From the IMG/VR virus record IMGVR_UViG_2698536618_000020: DNA of 52,086 bases; one strand, 5' to 3'. This DNA is from a virus (Duplodnaviria; Heunggongvirae; Uroviricota; Caudoviricetes). The notes beneath the pieces are model-generated. The model was not told the DNA's origin and did not search any database. It saw only the letters and a program-made list of their open reading frames with translations. Below are positions 2,065 through 40,101 of the stretch, piece after piece. The translations under genes and the position numbers were made by a program. The number at the start of each line of letters is the position of its first letter. Positions within the stretch are counted from its first letter, which is position 1.

Positions 2065-2361
2065 TTATACCTCTGAATCAATATTAATTTGGTGACGGGC
2101 GATGGTTTCAGCCATGTAGCGGATGTGTTCTGCCATGCGTTCCTGAAAATCGACATCGTCATCAAATGCACGGGAAATAGCTTTTTTGCTGGCCCCGTGA
2201 CGTTGCAGATTATCGATGCATAGCGATTCAAACAGGTGTTGGGGCAGACCTTTTTCCAGGTCGTCTGCCAGCTCAGCTTCAGTTTCTTCACGGGCAATTT
2301 GCTGGTAGTGTCGTGCCCATGACTGCTCTTCAATGCGATCGGGGATAAGCCAGGCATTCAT
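2065..2361 (-). CDS. gam: Gam host-nuclease (RecBCD) inhibitor, short GamS-like form
   Basis: 98 aa; '...[14 protein letters not shown]...[12 protein letters not shown]...RHGASKK...[12 protein letters not shown]...IDSEV' matches lambda GamS. Confidence 0.9.
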
Positions 2362-4430
2362 GATTTATCACCTTCGAAATTTTCAAGCCTGTTGGCAATC
2401 ATGATGGCGATATCAGGGATTGCTGGCGCTGTGGCTATACATGCGGGGTTGGCGCACAAACCATAGACGGCGGCAATCACGAGCTGTCTTTTCCAGTCGA
2501 GAGTTACTGGCTCAGAATTGGCGTCATCGCCGGACGTATCACTGCCTGGCTCGTTCTGAACAACGGTTTCGCCCTCCTGAGCGGCATCAACAGAGTTTTC
2601 CTGAATGATCTTCTCCTCAGTTTGTGCTGAGTCTTCTCCATCAGCGGCGTCATTTTCTCCAAAAGTTTCAGCGTAAGTTTCATCTCCCATTACTGGACCA
2701 CAGTCAGGGCAATGGCCGCCACCGTTCTGACTGCATGTGGTGCTAACCTTTTCCACTTCCTGTTGCATTACTGGCCCTGGCTGTTGCTCTTCTGGCCCGT
2801 TTTGTTGCGTATCCGGGCTGTTTTGTCCCGCTTCTGGGGCAATTTGTTCCACTTTGGGCTGATTCTGGTCCTCAGTGTCGCGAGTCTGGATCCCCTTCAC
2901 CCACTTCGGATCAGCAGGGTTACTGATGCCTTCAACGAATTCTCCACGCGAGGCAGCCAGTAATTTGTCGGCATCGACTGGATTTTTTGGGGGGATGTTT
3001 TCCCTGGCTTTATTGAGTTCCTCCCTCAGTTCCTGGTATTTCGTTTCTACAGATGAGACATTTTCCAGTGATTGCGTGTCCTCATTATGTTTAACTGGAA
3101 TTTCTTCCACTGATTCAGGCGCTGCCTGTTCATTAGCCATTGTGTCCGATGCTTGTTGCTTTTCTTCATCGCCATGTTTTCCTTCTGCTGTTCCGCGCTG
3201 CGGCATCGGTGCTGATGAGCGACCGCAGGCAATTTCCACGATTTCCGGATCCGGGTTAGCGTGATCGGTTTCGGTCAACACTTTGTTGAGATATTCAGTC
3301 ACGCGTGCCGGGATGGCCTCAATGCCGATTGGTGCTTCTTTCACGGAAGCCACCACAATGGCGCGGGAATAATCCAGCCCACCGGGCATGGCGATAAATT
3401 TGTCGCGAAAAACAGAAAAGGGCGGCTTATTCTCTGACACGATTTCTTCAACGCGTTTTGCGTGTGCTGGGTGCAGGTTATAAATATCCACATCCATTGA
3501 ACGGGCCAGAACGCCGGTGGCTACATCTCGTGCGAGTGATGTCTTATCATGTTTGAATCCTTCACCACGATCGGTAATATTTCCGCCGCCAGCGTTAGCA
3601 CCGGAAGGCGTACGGGTAATGCCTGAAACATAATTTCCGTTCTGCCATTCTTTTGTCAGCAGGCCCTGATCAAGGTAGTCAGTTTTCATCCAGGTGGAAA
3701 TGAACTTGTCGAATTCAGCCGGGCTGATGCGATGATTTGCAGAGTGGGGGAATGCTTTCCCTACAGATTCAGCCAGGCGACTAAGGTGATAGTTCGTCAG
3801 TTTATCCAGTTCATGATGCGCGGCGCGCACAGCAGTAAGCAGGCTCTGAAGGTAACTGTCCTCTGTGTCCATCTCCATACGGATCACGTTATTGCGTTGT
3901 TCTGGTGTGGCATGATGCCGGTATTTTCCATCTTCATCTTTGCTGAATAAGAAGAGGTGAAGGAAGCGATGAGTAAGGCTCAGAGTGGCGACGGGAATTT
4001 CACACTCAGAACAGTCATCGTCGCTGTCCGGGGATTCGCTTTTCTCCACATCATCCGGAATAGTTCCGTCCAGGTTATCGTTGTCATCGCCAGCAGTTGT
4101 GGCATCTTCACCGTTGATGTTGTCATCGAAGGGGATAGCCATCATGGTGATGCCATCGTTACCGCCTTTTTCATAGCGGTTGCAGAATTCAGTATCAAAC
4201 ACGCCTTCCGGTGGAAGGTCATTCACGACGGGGAAATTTACGCGAACGGGTTTTTTGAAATCATCCTCGTCGTAGCCTGCATCGTCCATGGCTGCAATGC
4301 AGCGGGAAACTGCGACAGAAAGTTTTCTGGCCTCGGTCCAGAAAAAACCGCCTTTGATGCCAAGGCGTTTTCTGACTTTATCGTTTTTTGCTTCGCAGTG
4401 TAGTGCAAAAGTCTGTTTATCAGCGCTCAT
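2358..4430 (-). CDS. large acidic hypothetical early protein (690 aa), function unknown
   Basis: 2073-nt uninterrupted ORF, ATGA-coupled to gam; long D/E/Q-rich low-complexity segments, two CxxC pairs ([16 protein letters not shown]), hydrophobic C-terminal segment; occupies the kil/cIII/ea10 slot of lambda. Confidence 0.7.
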
Positions 4431-4537
4431 TGTATTTAAATCTCTGGCTGGATTAGAATTAGCGGCCCTTTGTCTGATTTCTCCGAATACGGTGACGCAG
4501 GGAGAAATCCGGTAGCCTGCGCTGCCGGATTTTTATT

Positions 4538-4924
4538 TCAGTGGAAGGTTGCCTGGTTTGCTGTTTTGTGAGTTGTTTTTCCCTTTTCGTGCTGGCATTC
4601 AGGGCAGTCGCACTCAGAATTTTCTCTTGCAAACTCAAGAGCCTGTGCAAGTGTATGGATTTGTTGTACTCCAATGTTGCTTCTGACAACTTCACGTGCA
4701 GCATGAATATATGGGCTTGGTGTTTTGCCATTTAACCCACATAAAACAAAACGACTGTCCTTATATTCGTTATTTCCAACTTCTGTAAGCACTGAAAAAG
4801 AAAATACAAAGTCGATTTTGTATTCTTTGCATATTTTACTGATGCGTTCTGCAATTTCTTTGAGTTCATTTATTGCATCAGGACTGGTTTTGGAAAATAT
4901 TTCATTTTGCGCAAGTTCTTTCAT
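4538..4924 (-). CDS. hypothetical protein, AT-rich moron, C-terminal Cys cluster (CDCPECQHE)
   Basis: 128-aa ORF in visibly AT-rich DNA; same strand as PL operon. Confidence 0.5.
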   Translation of the reverse strand: MKELAQNEIFSKTSPDAINELKEIAERISKICKEYKIDFVFSFSVLTEVGNNEYKDSRFVLCGLNGKTPSPYIHAAREVVRSNIGVQQIHTLAQALEFARENSECDCPECQHEKGKTTHKTANQATFH

Positions 4925-5007
4925 TTTGATTTTTCCGTGATTGATAATTAATGCGGTTTTATTTCGGCTTGTCTGTTACAGATATGGAAGGTGTATTTTA
5001 TTACTCG

Positions 5008-5229
5008 TCACAACGACGCTGCTTTTACGGGTAAGCCATCGCGCCCGATGAAAACTTTAATCATGCAGTCGGTAATGCATGTTTTTGTTGTGAAGTTACG
5101 AATATAGAGTTTTCTCTTTTCAATATTGTTTGCTGAAGCGATATATGTCCGACCTTCATGAAGAACATAATCGCCAGGCGTCACGCACTGACGTGGTATT
5201 TCATCAGTTCCGAAGTGATGAGCAATCAT
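5008..5229 (-). CDS. hypothetical small protein
   Basis: 73-aa ORF from ATG with GGAG 6 nt upstream (longer GTG-start version ends 5247); AT-rich. Confidence 0.4.
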
Positions 5230-5402
5230 AATTATCTCCATTTTCACAAATGAACTTTGTTGATGCGGTGCCTGGTGCCTCCAGGTGACGTTAACCAGTT
5301 AACAACTAACGCCGGGTCAGGGGACGATGACTTTCCGTGACATCCTGTCGGTTTAACTGTTCCGCGTGCGCATAGCCGCATTCACCGCATCACAAAATTC
5401 AC

Positions 5403-5446
5403 TTTAAAAAGGGCGGACATCAGCAATCGGCAAACCGATGTCCGCC
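5403..5446 (-). terminator. intrinsic terminator within leftward early operon (tL-like)
   Basis: 10-bp perfect stem GGCGGACATC/GATGTCCGCC (5412-5421/5437-5446), followed on minus strand by TTTTTAAAG. Confidence 0.55.
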
Positions 5447-5685
5447 AAGGGCTACACACAGCAATGTTGTTATTCACAACCGGAAGCGCACGGTCGAAGA
5501 AATCTAACGACAAGCCTTCAATGGGTAAGAGTCTTCGCCGTGCACTTTCGTGTTGTACCCTGGCTTTCAGGGTAATGTCTGTTCAGTAAACTGAGAGTGC
5601 CGGAACTCACCCGTGTCCGGCGCACGATCTCCACCTCACCCGTGGAGAACTCCTCAACTACAAACCCCGTAAGGAGAGTGAATTT

Positions 5686-5895
5686 ATGACACAAGAAGAA
5701 AAAGTGATGTTTCTGATGCGGCTGGCTGTCGATACCTACAACACACAATTCAGGGAGAAAGATATACCTCAAAAGGCAGTTCCTGCCGCGGTAGATAAGG
5801 GCGGTGCTATTGCCGTATTTTACGATGCATTTGAATCATTTTTTGATGAAAAACTCGACGCTGTTAGCGACTTCGGAACATCGAGTAATAAATAA
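5686..5895 (+). CDS. hypothetical small protein encoded opposite to the PL operon
   Basis: 69-aa ORF, strong SD AAGGAGAG 7 nt upstream of ATG; 3' end overlaps 3' end of convergent minus-strand gene. Confidence 0.45.
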   Translation: MTQEEKVMFLMRLAVDTYNTQFREKDIPQKAVPAAVDKGGAIAVFYDAFESFFDEKLDAVSDFGTSSNK

Positions 5896-6223
5896 CGTTC
5901 ATTACGGTTCTTAAACAACAATCAGTGGGTTTGATGTTGTTCTTTTCAAGCTCACTTGCCATCACTTCCATTATTCTTGCACTTACACGAATTATTTGGT
6001 GGCTGTAAGCGACGCAACTGTCGCTGATATTGCTGTTTATTTCTATTACTTCATTTTCACTGGCGGCGCTAAATTTGGATATGCCGTTTCCATTGTCCTG
6101 TTTCAGTGCTTTTTCTGCCATCTGGATGCGTGTCAGCGTTGCGGAATTTGGGCTAAGTCGATAAACCTGTCTGGCATCTTCCAGAAGCAGGGCGATAATG
6201 TGCTTCAGTTCTGTTTCATTCAT
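5864..6223 (-). CDS. hypothetical early protein
   Basis: 119-aa ORF from ATG (MNETELKH...) with GGAG 6 nt upstream; longer frame extends to 6244. Confidence 0.45.
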   Translation of the reverse strand: MNETELKHIIALLLEDARQVYRLSPNSATLTRIQMAEKALKQDNGNGISKFSAASENEVIEINSNISDSCVAYSHQIIRVSARIMEVMASELEKNNIKPTDCCLRTVMNVIYYSMFRSR

Positions 6224-6254
6224 AGTTAACTCCGGTAGTTGCAATTTATTAATA

Positions 6255-6440
6255 TCAGGCGGTCAGCTCTTTAAGCTTCTGAACTGCTTTATTCATTTCA
6301 TCCATACAGTCGATGAATTCGTCCAGTTTAAGCTGCATTTTTCCGGCGGCCTGAAGAATTTCAAGTTTTAAGGGCGCAAGTTTTTTGTTGTAATCGACGC
6401 AGGTTATTAACTCGCGGCCAGTAATATTTTGGCTTGGCAC
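6255..6440 (-). CDS. hypothetical small protein (GTG start), amphipathic helical
   Basis: 61-aa ORF; overlaps next upstream ORF by about 80 bp, so one of the two may be shorter or spurious. Confidence 0.3.
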   Translation of the reverse strand: MPSQNITGRELITCVDYNKKLAPLKLEILQAAGKMQLKLDEFIDCMDEMNKAVQKLKELTA

Positions 6441-6650: not shown

Positions 6651-6956
6651 TCAATCGTAATAAGCCGGAATTGATTTTCCGCGTTGTTTCTGGCGGCCTG
6701 AGCAAGTCACACCCATTTCACTGCGTGGTTTGCGGTAGTAAATACGGTTCTGTTTACTCTCGACTTCTTCTGCCTTCTTGCAGCGAAGGCTTCCGAGTGA
6801 TACTGCTTTGTCTGCTCCGACGCAACCAGAGATCTTTAGCGCAATCTTCCGTGTCAGTCTTTCACTACTGCGCCGCTCTGCAATAAGTTCTTCCCTGCGA
6901 GCTTTATAGCGGCTTTTTGCCGTACCTTTGGATTCTTTCCAGATTATGGTTACCAT
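6651..6956 (-). CDS. N: N-like transcription antitermination protein
   Basis: 101 aa from ATG with AAGGAGA SD; N-terminal arginine-rich motif (GTAKSRYKARREELIAERR); C-terminus 'RIYYRKPRSEMGVTCSGRQKQRGKSIP' matches lambda N 'RTWYSKPGERGITCSGRQKIKGKSIP'. Confidence 0.85.
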   Translation of the reverse strand: MVTIIWKESKGTAKSRYKARREELIAERRSSERLTRKIALKISGCVGADKAVSLGSLRCKKAEEVESKQNRIYYRKPRSEMGVTCSGRQKQRGKSIPAYYD

Positions 6957-7066
6957 GATGGTCTCCTTTAAGTGGCTTTGGTGTATGACGCGTCGAGGTG
7001 TTTTTCTTCTCGATCGCGGCCTTGCAACTGAAATTCGCGTCATCCCCAAAACCACTTAGATTTTGG

Positions 7067-7663: not shown

Positions 7664-8371
7664 TTACCAGCTATGTGATGACCAGAACACTCGCCCTATG
7701 ATTCTTACGTTTTTGTAGAATTCTTCTCTGTTCATTACTTCATCAGGATACTCTTCGCGGTTTATCGATCTGATAATTACCGATGTTGGCGTGGCTATGA
7801 GCGTTTTTACCCTTAACAAATCAGCTTGGCAAATTGCATATGTTTTACCATCCCTGATGCTCGTATCTTGCGTGTTTACCCCCACCACATCACCATCATG
7901 GAGTGTTGGCTCCATGCTTTGCCCAACAACCCTGACCAACTTTGCCGCTTTTTCTGGAACTCCCATTTTTTTCAGGTAATAGCGCCTAAAAACTAGAGAG
8001 AATTCTGCGGACTCCTCCAATGCACAACTTCCTCCGCCAGCTGAAAGTGAAATATTTAGAAGGGGGAGCGCAACAAATTCGTCATTATCATTTTGATGAT
8101 CATCCCAGGCGATAGCTTTTAAAGATGATTCCCGAGCATTAGATGGCTCTTCTGCGCTCTGTGGTCTCATTGACCCTATACCAGAGCTTAGCCATTCAGG
8201 GCGAACTCTTAACGCGTTGGCTAATTCGACCATTTTACGTGATCCGGTTGTTTTACCAGATGACATCTTTTGTATGGCTGGTTGTGATACCCCCACCATG
8301 TCTGCAAGTTGTGCTTGTGACAACCCGGCTGAACTCATGGCGGCATTTAGTCTTTCTGCGAATGTTTTCAT
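7664..8371 (-). CDS. cI: CI-type prophage repressor (HTH_XRE N-domain + LexA/S24 peptidase C-domain)
   Basis: 235 aa; N-terminal HTH (LSQAQLADMVGVSQPAIQKM), Ala-Gly cleavage region (LSAGGG), S24 motifs GQSMEPTL and K in '...LLRVKTLI...'; divergent from cro. Confidence 0.92.
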   Translation of the reverse strand: MKTFAERLNAAMSSAGLSQAQLADMVGVSQPAIQKMSSGKTTGSRKMVELANALRVRPEWLSSGIGSMRPQSAEEPSNARESSLKAIAWDDHQNDNDEFVALPLLNISLSAGGGSCALEESAEFSLVFRRYYLKKMGVPEKAAKLVRVVGQSMEPTLHDGDVVGVNTQDTSIRDGKTYAICQADLLRVKTLIATPTSVIIRSINREEYPDEVMNREEFYKNVRIIGRVFWSSHSW

Positions 8372-13270: not shown

Positions 13271-13515
13271 ATTCATTACGATATGGGAATTCCCATATCG
13301 GGTAAAAACGGTTTGCGGTAAAGCGAGAGTTAAGTAGAATTGCTGCGGGTGCTTGAGGCTGTCTGCCTCGGGCATGCCACCGTAAGGCAGACAGAGAAAA
13401 GCCCCAGTTAACATTACGCGTCCTGCAAGACGCCTAACATTAATCTGAGGCCAATTTCATGCTAGACACATGTAGGTTAGCCTCTTACGCGCCGAAAGGC
13501 AAGGAGAAGCAGGCT

Positions 13516-13671
13516 ATGAAGCAGCAAAAGGCGATGTTAGTCGCCCTGATCGTCATCTGTATTACCGTCATTGTGACGGCACTGGTAACGAGGAAAGACC
13601 TCTGCGAGGTACGAATCCGAACCGGCCAGACGGAGGTCACTGTCTTCACAGCTTACGAACCTGAGGAGTAA
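13516..13671 (+). CDS. hok: Hok/Gef-family type I toxin
   Basis: 51 aa 'MKQQKAMLVALIVICITVIVTALVTRKDLCEVRIRTGQTEVTVFTAYEPEE', matches E. coli HokD/RelF as I recall it; AAGGAGAAG SD; longer in-frame upstream ORF (13459) is Mok-like. Confidence 0.85.
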   Translation: MKQQKAMLVALIVICITVIVTALVTRKDLCEVRIRTGQTEVTVFTAYEPEE

Positions 13672-15294: not shown

Positions 15295-15638
15295 TTTTTG
15301 TTCCGTTATTAATGTATAACACATAGTGTTACATTGCGTAGGGATCTGCAATGCCATCAGTTTGACAACGTCGCGTATCCGGGATTATATTCATCGCACG
15401 CCAGCAAAATCTGGCGTCGGGATTAGGAACCCCGGATAGAAACCGCGACAGAGACACGCCGCGAGCGTGTTTTTTATTGTCGTATGCACACGCACATCTG
15501 AATTATGGTGGGGCGTATAGGGGAGCTGAAAAGCTCGCCGGTTGGTTTCCCGGTAGTTCCTAACCCTGTACGTCTCGCCACCCGATGATTAGGAACCTGA
15601 CGGTGGTGATAGTTTAGAAACCACTCGAGGGCGTCATT

Positions 15639-18537: not shown

Positions 18538-19022
18538 GTATCCGTTCAACGGGAATGTTACATACCTCACAATTAAGTCAGTTGAATGTTGTCTGCCCGG
18601 ATGAGAATTTGTTAGAAAAAACTGCATGGTGAATCCCCCTGAGCGGAGGGGCGACTGGTGACGGTATAATCTCTGATTATCAAAACGAGAATGACGCGGG
18701 TTTAGTGGCACCGGGCTGAACTCACCGGGAGGCACCCGGCACCATGCAATGGCACATAGCGCCACTCTCCAGCCCCTCTCCGGAGGGGCTTTCTTATGGA
18801 CAAAAAAGCCCGCGCTGGGAGACGCGGGCGGCAAGGAATGAACAATGAAACGTGAAGTAATATTTCAGCTGGCGAATAATACCCCATAGTAATCACTCTG
18901 CGCAACTGCGCGACCTTTTTCGAATTGCGGGCTGTAGTCTCCCTTCTGCCATTGTCCTGTAACTTCCGGACTTCAGCCCGCTCCTTATTTTACTCACAAT
19001 ATTATCCCGGCCGGGAGGATTC

Positions 19023-38382: not shown

Positions 38383-38661
38383 TTGGAATACGGTTTTGCC
38401 ATTTATAACAGAAATAACGTTAATGTTACGGGCGTGCTTACTCCCATATTTTTCCTGGACAGGTTTACGGCGGAGTCGGGATCAAAAACGTATACGAATA
38501 AACCAGAAGGGAAAACATTGCAGGCAGTCTGTTCATTATTTCCGTGGAATAATGTATTTAAGGACCGGAAAGTACCGAAGATAACCATTAATGGCAATAC
38601 GGTGACGTGGTCAAATCTTGAGCAGGGGATGGGGTCATATATTTATACATTCTGGGGGTGA
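38383..38661 (+). CDS. hypothetical protein, AT-rich
   Basis: 92-aa ORF directly after fibre gene. Confidence 0.45.
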   Translation: MEYGFAIYNRNNVNVTGVLTPIFFLDRFTAESGSKTYTNKPEGKTLQAVCSLFPWNNVFKDRKVPKITINGNTVTWSNLEQGMGSYIYTFWG

Positions 38662-39284
38662 GTTGTATGTATGGTTTAAGCATTACGAAACCAGATGGCA
38701 GCTTGTGGATAAGCCCGGGGTTTACGCCTCAGTGTCTGATCAATAAGGGAACTATTCCGGCGACTGAGAAGGCTTTTTTTAAAACGTCAATTCCGTCAGG
38801 AAAAAGTTGTTTTTTCTTTATCAGAACAGAGAATAAGGCCGATGTCATGTACACGCATGAACAGATTGATGGATATCATGCCTTAAGGCTTCATCAAATT
38901 GTCAGGGGAACGAATCCTGGTGTTACGACTGTTTATGCTTTTGCGAATATGGTTACTCAACCTTCTGAGTATGGTATCGCCATGTATAACCCGTCGGGTG
39001 AGATGATTTACCATGGCGAAATGATGCTGCTTGACGCGAAGTTAATACCAGTTGATATCAAGTTTGAGAAGGACCTTGGATATCCATGCGCAATTATGCC
39101 TGCACTGGTTGGATATTATAACTGGAAACGAACACCTTATGACCGACCGATTTACACCACATCCACTGGTGCTACAGGAAATAAAATATATTCCTGTGAG
39201 CATTATTCCGGTGGTGCAACATGGGATATCCGAAAGCCGTATATAGATAAAGTTCTGGTTATTAATTCCTCAATATATGATTAG
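38658..39284 (+). CDS. hypothetical protein, AT-rich (possible tail tip / receptor-binding accessory)
   Basis: 208-aa ORF, ATGA-coupled to previous. Confidence 0.5.
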   Translation: MSCMYGLSITKPDGSLWISPGFTPQCLINKGTIPATEKAFFKTSIPSGKSCFFFIRTENKADVMYTHEQIDGYHALRLHQIVRGTNPGVTTVYAFANMVTQPSEYGIAMYNPSGEMIYHGEMMLLDAKLIPVDIKFEKDLGYPCAIMPALVGYYNWKRTPYDRPIYTTSTGATGNKIYSCEHYSGGATWDIRKPYIDKVLVINSSIYD

Positions 39285-39363
39285 CGTAAGAAAAACTTTA
39301 ATAGTGTAAAACGAAAGCGTTCCTTTCAGACATCGCATCCTTTAATTCAGAGAAATACTTAAA

Positions 39364-40101
39364 ATGAAAAGTATCATGAAATTTTTTGCGTGTGCAGTTC
39401 TGGTGATGAGTTGCTTAACTGCACAGGTAAATGCAGCATCAGGCGATAGTACGGTATCTCTCGGGTTTGCACACATACGCTTCCCCGGGCTGAAGGATTT
39501 TGTTAGAGACGCGGGTGTTTATAACCGGGATACGTTCAGGAATGTTGTAAACGTAAACCATTTTAATTCATCAGGTGAATACGAAAATGCTATTGCCCGG
39601 GGGCATGACGGCACAGCCAAAAGCCCCCTGGGGATGAGCATCAGGTATCGTTACGAGATAACTGATGAACTGGGTGTTATAGCCTCTTTTACATGGGCGC
39701 GCTCCATGACTAATGCGCAGGCATTTATTGATGTTAAGCCTTCCGATCCATCACGAGAGGTAAAAAAACCGGCAGCTTCAGCGAGAACTGATATCAGGGC
39801 TAATTACTGGAGTCTACTATCCGGTCCTTCGTGGCGGTTTAACGAATACCTCAGTGTGTATGCAATGGCTGGTATGGGGGTTGCAAAAGTCACCACTGAC
39901 TTGAAAATTAACGACAATCTTAATCATGGTGCCGGTAGTTTTTCTGAAAGTAACAGCACCAAAAAAACGTCTATTGCATGGTCTGTCGGCGCGCAATTTA
40001 ACTTCAATGAAAGTGTTACTATGGACGTCACTTATGAAAGCTCAGGCTCTGGCGACTGGAAAACTGATGGTTTATTTGCAGGCATTGGCCTGAAATTCTG
40101 A
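39364..40101 (+). CDS. lom: Lom/Ail/PagC-family outer membrane beta-barrel protein
   Basis: 245 aa; signal peptide (MKSIMKFFACAVLVMSCLTAQVNA); C-terminus 'YESSGSGDWKTDGLFAGIGLKF' matches lambda Lom '...GSGSGDWRTDGFIVGVGYKF'. Confidence 0.85.
   Translation: MKSIMKFFACAVLVMSCLTAQVNAASGDSTVSLGFAHIRFPGLKDFVRDAGVYNRDTFRNVVNVNHFNSSGEYENAIARGHDGTAKSPLGMSIRYRYEITDELGVIASFTWARSMTNAQAFIDVKPSDPSREVKKPAASARTDIRANYWSLLSGPSWRFNEYLSVYAMAGMGVAKVTTDLKINDNLNHGAGSFSESNSTKKTSIAWSVGAQFNFNESVTMDVTYESSGSGDWKTDGLFAGIGLKF

What the first reader, a model, noticed from the sequence alone, without database searches (positions are those of the whole stretch)
4538..5247. AT-rich two-gene moron cassette inside the PL operon
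Two small co-directional ORFs (128 aa with a CDCPECQ cluster, and 73-79 aa) lie in DNA that is visibly more AT-rich than the flanking Red genes, suggesting recent horizontal acquisition. The N-to-gam interval is where lambdoid phages carry anti-restriction (ral) and exclusion (sieB) functions, so an unassigned cassette here is a plausible anti-defence or exclusion candidate.
Basis: inference. Interest (0 to 1): 0.5.

Follow-up and report, generated by a model that had tools for sequence, protein, structure and literature searches.

The report
kilR plus an uncharacterised prophage gene
The AT-rich stretch holds the well-known prophage gene kilR, which blocks host cell division, and next to it a small, real but uncharacterised gene found only in E. 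coli/Shigella lambda-like prophages; this is ordinary phage mosaicism, not a newly acquired two-gene unit.

Summary
Both ORFs exist at the stated coordinates, and the interval has 38.6% GC against 50.8% for the window, which puts it in the lowest 0.1% of windows of that size.

- The 73-aa ORF (5008-5229, minus strand) is kilR. It is 93% identical to Rac KilR, the studied FtsZ/MreB inhibitor, so it is neither unassigned nor an anti-defence candidate.
- The 128-aa ORF (4538-4924) belongs to PHROG 2016, function unknown. It is a real gene: 20 distinct alleles carry no stop codons, and dN/dS is about 0.3-0.4.
- I found this family only in E. coli/Shigella lambdoid prophages. It has no detectable relative among 1.84 billion representative proteins, and two AlphaFold runs gave no usable fold.
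- The two genes are not one cassette. Similarity to Rac-type prophages ends 14 nt after the kilR stop codon. The 83-nt spacer is a decayed ydaE gene.
- orf128 fills a variable slot just upstream of a recE-family gene. Rac carries racC there, and other prophages carry a third unrelated gene.
- No promoter or terminator brackets the pair. A DicF-like terminator hairpin and a conserved leader lie upstream of kilR.

The function of orf128 is unknown. My best guess, by inference only, is a small delayed-early protein that binds and modulates a host protein.

The parts
5008..5229 (-). kilR: 73-aa Rac-type Kil protein, an inhibitor of FtsZ-dependent division and MreB-dependent elongation. The true start is the ATG at 5229, preceded by GGAG. 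The 79-aa GTG form that extends to 5247 is an ORF-finder artefact.
   Evidence: Family and identity: NCBIfam NF008465, 154.9 bits against a cut-off of 92, covering 1-72 of 73. PHROG 294, E 1e-37. 68 of 73 residues identical to Rac-SA53 KilR.

Selection: dN/dS 0.05 over 38 unique alleles.

Distribution: present in 1873 of 5426 E. coli genomes. Annotated Kil in PhiR5_2, Shigella phage 75/02 Stx and POCJ13.
4538..4924 (-). orf128: 128-aa, 14.5-kDa protein with pI 6.2, a member of PHROG 2016 (function unknown). No signal peptide or membrane segment is evident from the sequence. Invariant residues include C32, H74, C107, C110 and H128, with the CxxC at 107-110.
   Evidence: Family: PHROG 2016, E 1.9e-78, full length.

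Relatives: 26 protein clusters, all E. coli/Shigella, 58-100% identical. A profile search of 1.84 billion representatives found only the family itself. No GTDB species representative carries it. No plasmid hit.

Distribution: 81 of 5426 E. coli genomes.

Coding status: 20 unique alleles without stop codons; dN/dS 0.34-0.43.

Fold: AlphaFold pLDDT 59.9 and 52.3, and no fold match.
4925..5007 (-). 83-nt, 32.5% GC spacer between kilR and orf128. It is a decayed 5' remnant of ydaE, a small Rtr1-like zinc-finger gene that is intact in some relatives.
   Evidence: Alignment with the kilR-ydaE-orf128 loci L082 and phiSTEC1589-Stx1c shows the first roughly 70 nt of ydaE still recognisable, with a 5-nt deletion, followed by about 165 nt missing. 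The spacer has no significant RNA structure (z +0.88).
5215..5409 (-). Conserved non-coding leader upstream of kilR. It resembles STnc100 but scores below the Rfam threshold. The 45-aa ORF at 5244-5381 inside it is not a gene.
   Evidence: Rfam RF02076: 31 bits against a gathering score of 47, E 4.5e-4. 'orf45' has dN/dS of about 0.8-1.05, and one allele carries a stop codon. The DNA is conserved at 84-87% in Rac-type and dicB-bearing phages.
5411..5460 (-). DicF-like hairpin followed by CTTTTT. It is probably an intrinsic terminator or the 3' end of an sRNA, placed ahead of the kilR leader.
   Evidence: Rfam RF00039 DicF: 29.5 bits against a gathering score of 48, E 1.5e-3, covering model positions 1-52 of 52. 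The hairpin and T-run can be read directly in the sequence.
4431..4537 (-). 107-nt spacer between orf128 and the 690-aa gene. It contains a hairpin at 4505-4532 without a U-tail. It shows no sign of being a terminator.
   Evidence: Fold z-score -1.06; 29 of 200 shuffles fold at least as well. The terminator scan reports no minus-strand site here.
2358..4430 (-). Flanking context: a 690-aa RecE-family protein that lacks the nuclease domain (the 'RecE-2' type). It is followed by gam, bet and exo.
   Evidence: NCBIfam NF007259 matches positions 1-598 of 877, at 736.8 bits, below the 1269-bit equivalog cut-off. Pfam Exonuc_VIII matches the N-terminal part only. Nuclease-less RecE-2 proteins of unknown role are described in PMC12315714, section 12.

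Best explanation
The interval contains two separate accessory genes of a 933W/Phi24B-like lambdoid prophage. Both are transcribed leftward from PL as delayed-early genes.

(1) kilR. By homology to an experimentally studied protein, KilR binds or perturbs FtsZ, and at higher dose MreB. This stops division and elongation while the phage develops. In a lysogen the same effect follows transcriptional read-through under stress. A DicF-like terminator hairpin and a conserved leader lie just upstream. I infer from this that kilR and orf128 are reached mainly by N-antiterminated or termination-relieved transcripts.

(2) orf128. This is a real protein-coding gene of unknown function. It occupies a variable slot directly upstream of a recE-family gene. 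Other prophages carry the unrelated genes racC or a PHROG-2434 gene in that slot.

My committed guess for orf128 is inference, not a shown result. I think it is a small cytoplasmic protein, possibly zinc-stabilised through C32/H74/C107/C110. I think it acts the way most small lambdoid PL proteins act (Kil, cIII, Gam, Ral, Abc2), by binding and modulating one host protein. I put that general mechanism at about 0.4. The target is most plausibly a DNA-processing or defence factor, which I put at about 0.25.

The low GC reflects the usual composition of lambdoid accessory genes plus a decayed ydaE spacer. It does not indicate a recently inserted cassette.
For: kilR identity. KilR mechanism: PMC12482147 and PMC5793797.

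orf128 is coding. Twenty unique alleles have no stop codons, the only indel is in frame (2 codons), and dN/dS is 0.34-0.43.

orf128 is an orphan family.

The context is fixed. In 39 IMG/VR loci and 5 further assemblies the order is kilR(-ydaE)-orf128-recE family-gam-bet-exo. This holds even for alleles that are only 58-65% identical and that sit next to different immunity regions.

The slot has alternatives: racC in about 43 loci, orf128 in 33, and a PHROG-2434 gene in 2.

The homology break with Rac-type loci is at 4994. The spacer is a ydaE remnant.

No promoter or terminator brackets the pair. A DicF-like element and a leader lie upstream.

orf128 is the most diverged gene of the block. Against L123/L126, its dN is 0.21-0.24 and dS 0.80-0.85, while kilR, gam, bet and exo have dN 0.015-0.033 and dS 0.29-0.38. 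Nucleotide diversity peaks at 0.14 in its 5' end, against 0.01-0.03 in the flanks.
Against: - Nothing bears directly on what orf128 does. There is no family hit above threshold. The best are DUF1281_C (14.8 bits against 22.8) and the YnfU zinc family (13.3 against 36).
- PADLOC gave no hit.
- Two AlphaFold runs were unreliable, and fold searches returned only generic helical matches.
- The zinc site is inferred from five invariant Cys/His residues only. C105 and H112 of the 'CDCPECQH' cluster are not conserved.
- No region of orf128 has dN/dS above 1, so an arms-race signature is not demonstrated. The raised dS suggests old alleles moved by recombination rather than rapid adaptation.
- The promoter and terminator scans are simple consensus scans and could miss weak signals.
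- The DicF-like and STnc100-like matches are below Rfam gathering scores.
Confidence: 0.7

Rival explanations
1. One reading: kilR and orf128 form one horizontally acquired, AT-rich two-gene moron whose job is anti-restriction, anti-defence or superinfection exclusion.
For: The low GC is real. The N-to-gam interval is where lambda and P22 carry ral and sieB (textbook knowledge). orf128 is unassigned, has a patchy distribution and is the fastest-diverging gene of its block.
Against: - One of the two genes is kilR, a division inhibitor.
- The two genes have different homology boundaries and very different prevalence.
- ydaE separates them in some relatives.
- No promoter or terminator of their own was found.
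- Neither gene hits a PADLOC or anti-restriction family.
Confidence: 0.1
2. orf128 is an accessory factor of the recombination module. It would work with the nuclease-less RecE-2 protein and/or Gam-Bet-Exo, as the positional counterpart of Rac racC and P22 arf, which also lie between kil and the recombinase gene.
For: In every locus seen, orf128 lies immediately upstream of a recE-family gene whose N-terminus is of the 'MSADKQ...' type. racC and the PHROG-2434 gene sit in the same place next to RecE or RecE-2. orf128 lies on the recE side of the mosaic break at 4994. P22 Arf and Abc1 are small recombination helpers of unknown mechanism that are encoded in that phage's Rec module (PMC12315714, section 12).
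Against: - RecE-2-gam-bet modules exist without orf128, for example with racC (L083, L089, L111) or with the PHROG-2434 gene (L070).
- The association could simply reflect the 107-nt physical linkage.
- orf128 shows no similarity to RacC (probability 0.1%) and has no DNA-binding or nuclease motif.
- The gene order of P22 is recalled from memory and was not tested here.
Confidence: 0.25
3. orf128 modulates KilR, as an antidote, chaperone or timing factor that limits or directs the toxicity of the gene just upstream.
For: orf128 is always directly downstream of kilR, or of kilR-ydaE, and on the same transcript. KilR is highly toxic (PMC12482147).
Against: kilR occurs in 1873 genomes and orf128 in 81. 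Most kilR genes therefore function without it, next to the unrelated racC. kilR is nearly invariant while orf128 varies by up to 42%, which is not what tightly co-adapted partners would show.
Confidence: 0.08
4. orf128 is not a functional gene. It would be a chance ORF or a decaying remnant in AT-rich spacer DNA.
For: It has no homologues outside E. coli/Shigella prophages, no confident fold and weaker constraint than its neighbours.
Against: - The reading frame is intact in 20 unique alleles that differ by up to 42% in protein sequence, and the only indel is in frame.
- dN/dS is 0.25-0.43, clearly below 1, whereas the neighbouring non-coding 'orf45' sits at about 1.
- Fifty-two invariant residues are concentrated in a core at positions 38-84.
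- The exact window protein is recorded on at least 1000 contigs.
Confidence: 0.03

Closest known systems
KilR of the E. coli K-12 Rac prophage (FtsZ/MreB inhibitor; NCBIfam NF008465, PHROG 294, Pfam PF27398)
   Same: The 73-aa ORF has the same length and is 93% identical. It has the same upstream leader and the same place in the early-left operon ahead of a recE-family gene.
   Different: There are five substitutions: E37K, F46L, I60L, A71E and L73W (window residue first). Two fall in the C-terminal tail, which the 2025 KilR study found important for toxicity. Here the gene sits in a prophage whose close relative PhiR5_2 is a complete phage genome, rather than in a defective prophage. The downstream neighbours also differ: a ydaE remnant and orf128, rather than ydaE and racC.
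racC (Rac prophage; NCBIfam NF007306, PHROG 4778) and the PHROG-2434 gene: the alternative occupants of the slot between kilR/ydaE and recE
   Same: They have the same position, orientation and size class (91-128 aa). All are of unknown function, and each excludes the others at the slot.
   Different: orf128 has no detectable sequence similarity to RacC (hhalign probability 0.1%). With the PHROG-2434 protein it shares only a weak 24-residue helix match (probability 15%). Equivalent function is not shown.
Morons of lambdoid phages (for example lom and bor in lambda): independently transcribed, compositionally atypical insertions
   Same: The composition is atypical and AT-rich, the content is non-essential accessory genes, and the distribution is patchy.
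   Different: No promoter or terminator of its own was found. The genes lie in line within the PL operon. kilR is a conserved part of the block, and orf128 is an allelic alternative rather than an insertion between genes that are otherwise adjacent. A better moron candidate in this window is the Lom-like gene at 39364-40101, in the second low-GC trough.
Small host-protein inhibitors of the lambdoid early-left operon (lambda Kil, cIII, Gam, Ral; P22 Abc2)
   Same: orf128 is in the same operon and timing class, is similarly small and is dispensable by distribution. This is the basis of the mechanistic guess, and it rests on established knowledge of those proteins.
   Different: orf128 matched no characterised family in Pfam, PHROGs, NCBIfam or PADLOC. 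No target is known for it.

Membership tests
KilR / FtsZ inhibitor protein (NCBIfam NF008465; PHROG 294) | Full-length sequence match above the curated cut-off | tested here: met
   154.9 bits against a cut-off of 92, residues 1-72 on model positions 1-72 of 73. PHROG 294, E 1e-37. 68 of 73 residues identical to Rac-SA53 KilR.
KilR / FtsZ inhibitor protein (NCBIfam NF008465; PHROG 294) | Location in a lambdoid early-left operon upstream of the recombination genes, with the conserved upstream leader | tested here: met
   The order N ... leader-kilR-(ydaE)-X-recE family is seen in the window, in Rac-SA53 and in 80 IMG/VR loci. The leader and kilR align at 84-87% with Rac-type loci.
KilR / FtsZ inhibitor protein (NCBIfam NF008465; PHROG 294) | Expression causes filamentation or lethality that FtsZ overproduction relieves | not testable with these tools
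   This was shown experimentally for K-12 KilR (PMC12482147, PMC5793797). Here it is inferred from 93% identity.
PHROG 2016 (unknown function) | Full-length profile match | tested here: met
   E 1.9e-78, residues 1-128 on profile positions 1-128 of 128.
Moron (independent transcription unit inserted into a phage operon) | Own promoter upstream | tested here: not met
   No sigma-70-like site in 4200-6000 on either strand; shuffled sequences give 2.9 +/- 1.6. This is a simple consensus scan, so weak promoters are not excluded.
Moron (independent transcription unit inserted into a phage operon) | Own terminator downstream | tested here: not met
   No minus-strand terminator-like site lies between 4431 and 4537. 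The hairpin at 4505-4532 has no U-tail, and its fold z-score is -1.06.
Moron (independent transcription unit inserted into a phage operon) | Inserted between genes that are adjacent in related phages | tested here: not met
   No locus with kilR or ydaE directly abutting the recE-family gene was seen. The slot always holds racC, orf128 or a PHROG-2434 gene. kilR itself is part of the conserved block.
Moron (independent transcription unit inserted into a phage operon) | Base composition unlike the flanking genes | tested here: met
   38.6% GC against 50-52% in the Red genes. GC3 is 0.295 for orf128.
Known anti-phage defence or exclusion proteins (PADLOC-DB 2.0) | Match to any defence-protein profile | tested here: not met
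   No family at E <= 0.1 for orf128, kilR, the 690-aa protein or orf126.
YdaE / YnfU small zinc-binding prophage proteins | Profile match above cut-off | tested here: not met
   orf128 residues 98-123 score 13.3 bits against NF038384, cut-off 36. hhalign against Rac YdaE gives probability 0.5%.
DUF1281_C (ferredoxin-like domain of Api92-like proteins, PF18406) | Profile match above the gathering score | tested here: not met
   14.8 bits against 22.8. Eight of 14 family members give sub-threshold hits, the best at E 0.0042. This is a lead only.
DicF RNA (Rfam RF00039) | Covariance-model score at or above the gathering score | tested here: not met
   29.5 bits against 48 at 5411-5460 on the minus strand. 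It is best called DicF-like.

The most novel reading that the evidence does not exclude
The site directly upstream of recE-family genes in kilR-bearing lambdoid prophages may be a small hot spot that swaps unrelated genes: orf128/PHROG 2016, racC/PHROG 4778 and PHROG 2434. In that case orf128 would be the founding member of a new, possibly zinc-dependent, family. It would either inhibit a host defence or DNA-processing enzyme, or tune phage recombination. That would explain why it is the fastest-diverging gene in an otherwise conserved block.
Probability: 0.25. Interest if true: 0.5.

Novelty: already known. Interest (0 to 1): 0.2.

Why it matters
This has little consequence as it stands.
- kilR is a textbook prophage toxin. 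The same kilR-orf128-recE-like arrangement is already in deposited phage genomes: PhiR5_2, Shigella phages 75/02 Stx and POCJ13, and phiSTEC1589-Stx1c.
- The useful outcome is a corrected annotation. The interval holds kilR, a ydaE remnant and one orphan gene, with a non-coding leader and a DicF-like hairpin upstream.
- It also defines a three-way variable slot of unknown function next to the recombination module.
- If orf128, racC or the PHROG-2434 gene proved to be anti-defence or recombination modulators, that would assign a role to genes, racC among them, that still have no assigned function in the family libraries and papers searched here. These genes occur in many pathogenic E. coli and Shigella prophages.

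Tried and rejected
**Homology searches for orf128, all without an informative hit**
- Pfam, NCBIfam and PADLOC gave only sub-threshold hits or none; PHROGs placed it in family 2016, which has no assigned function.
- PDB sequence profile search: best hit is a repeat protein, Ika8, at E 0.0023 with no significant single stretch, so I treat it as spurious.
- Word-indexed search of 5.8 billion proteins found only E. coli relatives.
- Exhaustive HMMER profile search of 1.84 billion representatives found the family itself plus one repetitive 412-aa protein at E 5.8e-4, judged spurious.
- GTDB species representatives: none. Plasmids: none.

**Structure**
- Two AlphaFold2 runs with different query alleles gave pLDDT 59.9 and 52.3.
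- Foldseek against BFVD gave no hit at E <= 0.001.
- The afdb50 library was unavailable.
- I draw no fold conclusion from any of this.

**Other tests**
- Homology between the slot occupants was rejected or left inconclusive.
- Structured RNA or a terminator in the two spacers was rejected.
- The 45-aa ORF upstream of kilR was rejected as a gene (dN/dS about 1).
- Positive selection in orf128 was not found in any segment (pN/pS 0.32-0.69).
- A literature search for peptide strings of orf128 found nothing. A search for functional studies of racC or ydaE found only papers that mention them in passing.

Full report
**Setting**

The window is a lambdoid prophage. It is near-identical in this region to prophages of E. 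coli O104:H4 strains (99.8% over 577 nt) and to Escherichia phage PhiR5_2 (98.7% over 970 nt). PhiR5_2 has a 933W-like gene layout.

The leftward early operon runs on the minus strand in this order:
- cI (7664-8371)
- N (6651-7055)
- several small ORFs
- the finding itself
- a 690-aa RecE-family protein without a nuclease domain (2358-4430)
- gam, bet and exo

**Observation**

The interval 4538-5247 has 38.6% GC against 50.8% for the window and 50-52% for bet and exo. Only 0.12% of 710-nt windows are as AT-rich. GC3 is 0.295 for the 128-aa ORF and 0.39 for the 73-aa ORF, against 0.55-0.61 for bet and exo.

**The 73-aa ORF is kilR**
- It scores 154.9 bits on NCBIfam NF008465 'FtsZ inhibitor protein' (cut-off 92) and matches PHROG 294 'Kil protein for bacterial septation inhibition'.
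- It differs from Rac-SA53 KilR at 5 of 73 residues.
- The start is the ATG at 5229, 6 nt after a GGAG. The 79-aa form from a GTG start is an artefact of ORF listing.
- It is under strong purifying selection (dN/dS 0.05 over 38 alleles).
- It is common, being present in 1873 of 5426 complete E. coli genomes.
- KilR has been shown to inhibit FtsZ-dependent division and MreB-dependent elongation (PMC12482147).
- In K-12 it is expressed when NusG/Rho-dependent termination is relieved (PMC5793797).

**What lies upstream of kilR**
- Rfam in E-value mode finds a DicF-like hairpin at 5411-5460 (29.5 bits, gathering score 48). It also finds an STnc100-like element at 5215-5409 (31 bits, gathering score 47). 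Both are on the minus strand.
- The hairpin is followed by CTTTTT.
- The 45-aa ORF inside the leader has dN/dS near 1 and a stop codon in one allele, so it is not a gene.
- This leader-plus-kilR module aligns with Rac-type loci over 5491..4994 at 83-86% identity, and the similarity stops 14 nt after the kilR stop codon.
- I infer that kilR and everything downstream are expressed mainly from antiterminated PL transcripts. This was not tested.

**The 128-aa ORF (orf128)**

*Family and distribution*
- It matches PHROG 2016, function unknown, over its full length (E 1.9e-78).
- All relatives come from E. coli, Escherichia or Shigella and are annotated 'hypothetical protein'.
- A profile search that read all 1.84 billion representative proteins found only the family itself and one spurious repeat protein.
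- No GTDB species representative, no plasmid and only six phage records carry it.
- It is in 81 of 5426 complete E. coli genomes.

*It is a real gene*
- Twenty unique nucleotide alleles keep the frame without stop codons.
- The only indel is two codons long.
- dN/dS is 0.34-0.43 overall and below 1 in every segment.
- Invariant residues cluster in a core at 38-84 and include C32, H74, C107, C110 and H128.
- C105 and H112 of the 'CDCPECQH' cluster are not conserved. A zinc site is therefore possible, but only inferred.
- The protein is 14.5 kDa with pI 6.2.

*No fold could be assigned*
- Two AlphaFold2 runs gave pLDDT 59.9 and 52.3.
- Fold searches returned nothing meaningful.
- Sub-threshold hints to DUF1281_C and to the YnfU zinc family are leads only.

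**The two genes are not one cassette**
- Among 80 kilR loci from IMG/VR, the gene after kilR(/ydaE) and before the recE-family gene is one of three: racC (about 43 loci), orf128 (33 loci, 6 of them with ydaE in between) or a 98-114-aa PHROG-2434 gene (2 loci).
- orf128 shows no convincing similarity to either alternative. RacC and the PHROG-2434 protein show none to each other.
- The window's 83-nt spacer between kilR and orf128 is a decayed ydaE. Its first roughly 70 nt are still alignable but carry a 5-nt deletion, and about 165 nt are missing.
- Every orf128 allele, including those only 58-65% identical and those next to different N and immunity genes, sits between kilR and a recE-family gene of the same N-terminal type.
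- One locus has orf128 cut by an IS1 element.

**Evolutionary rate**

Against loci L123 and L126, the flanking kilR, gam, bet and exo show dN 0.015-0.033 and dS 0.29-0.38. The 690-aa gene shows dN about 0.09. orf128 shows dN 0.21-0.24 and dS 0.80-0.85. Nucleotide diversity peaks at 0.14 in the 5' end of orf128, against 0.01-0.03 in kilR and the downstream spacer.

orf128 is therefore the most diverged gene of a conserved block. Because dS is also raised and dN/dS stays at 0.25-0.30, this looks like old alleles exchanged by recombination under relaxed constraint. It is not demonstrated positive selection.

**Moron test**

The consensus scan found no sigma-70-like promoter in 4200-6000 (2.9 expected in shuffles) and no minus-strand terminator after orf128. 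Neither spacer folds better than shuffled sequence. The composition criterion is met. The promoter, terminator and insertion criteria are not.

**Interpretation**

The finding is kilR, which is known, plus one orphan accessory gene in a variable slot, with a dead ydaE between them. For orf128 I commit to a small host-protein-binding modulator as the most likely mechanism (about 0.4). The reason is that this is how the characterised small proteins of this operon act: Kil, cIII, Gam, Ral and Abc2. I give about 0.25 to a defence or DNA-processing target.

The main rival (0.25) is an accessory role with the adjacent RecE-2/Gam/Bet/Exo module. RecE-2 proteins and the P22 helpers Arf and Abc1 are themselves of unknown mechanism (PMC12315714, section 12). 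A KilR-modulator role is unlikely because most kilR genes lack orf128. A non-gene is essentially excluded.

**Novelty**

The arrangement is already present in published phage genomes, and the gene family is catalogued as a PHROG. No paper in the library mentions its sequence. Interest is low. The slot and orf128 would only become interesting after an experiment assigns a function.

Noticed in passing
window 5411-5460 (-) and 5215-5409 (-): A DicF-like hairpin with a T-run and an STnc100-like conserved leader sit directly upstream of kilR. Both score below Rfam gathering thresholds (29.5 against 48, and 31 against 47 bits). The same DNA lies upstream of kil or dicB genes in many lambdoid phages at about 84% identity.
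   Followed up: partly
window 4925-5007: The AT-rich spacer between kilR and orf128 is a decayed remnant of ydaE, a small Rtr1-like zinc-finger gene. ydaE is intact in phiSTEC1589-Stx1c and in six IMG/VR loci.
   Followed up: yes
window 5244-5381 (-): A 45-aa ORF that matches PHROG 24763 has dN/dS of about 1 and a stop codon in one allele. It lies inside the conserved kilR leader and is probably not a gene.
   Followed up: partly
window 2358-4430 (-): A 690-aa RecE-family protein covers only positions 1-598 of the 877-position RecE model and has no nuclease domain. It has a long acidic, Q/E-rich middle region and precedes gam-bet-exo. A 2025 survey of lambdoid recombination modules (PMC12315714) calls such proteins 'RecE-2' and says their role is unknown.
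   Followed up: partly
L070 3966-4262 and L112 3919-4263: A third, unrelated small gene (98-114 aa, PHROG 2434, function unknown) occupies the same slot between ydaE and the recE-family gene as racC and orf128 do.
   Followed up: partly
L042 3307-4004: An IS1 element (InsA/InsB-like ORFs) has truncated orf128 at residue 49 in one IMG/VR prophage.
   Followed up: partly
window 5686-5895 (+): A 69-aa ORF (PHROG 2605, function unknown) lies on the opposite strand inside the leftward operon and overlaps the 3' end of the 126-aa ORF (5864-6244, PHROG 2982). Gene callers call it in related loci. Being antisense to PL, it is a better candidate for an independently transcribed accessory gene than the finding is.
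   Followed up: no
window 38658-40101 (+): The only other comparable low-GC trough in the window (about 37.5-39.5% GC near 39000-39400) covers a 208-aa ORF and the start of a 245-aa Lom/Ail-like outer-membrane protein gene. That is a classic moron position in the tail region.
   Followed up: no
window 13347-13521, 15398-15475, 15501-15585, 18596-18801 (+): There are Rfam matches above gathering score to sok antitoxin RNA, isrK, C4 antisense RNA and a full STnc100 copy (165 bits) in the early-right and late-regulatory region.
   Followed up: no
window 4349-4367 (-): A terminator-like hairpin followed by GTTTTTT lies about 60 nt inside the 5' end of the 690-aa gene. It may be chance: the scan found 7 sites against 2.0 +/- 1.7 expected.
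   Followed up: no
window 6255-6440 (-): A 61-aa ORF matches only the C-terminal end of the 229-aa PHROG 2539 and 204-aa PHROG 2565 profiles. PhiR5_2 has a 237-aa gene at this position, so the window seems to carry a truncated or rearranged version.
   Followed up: no
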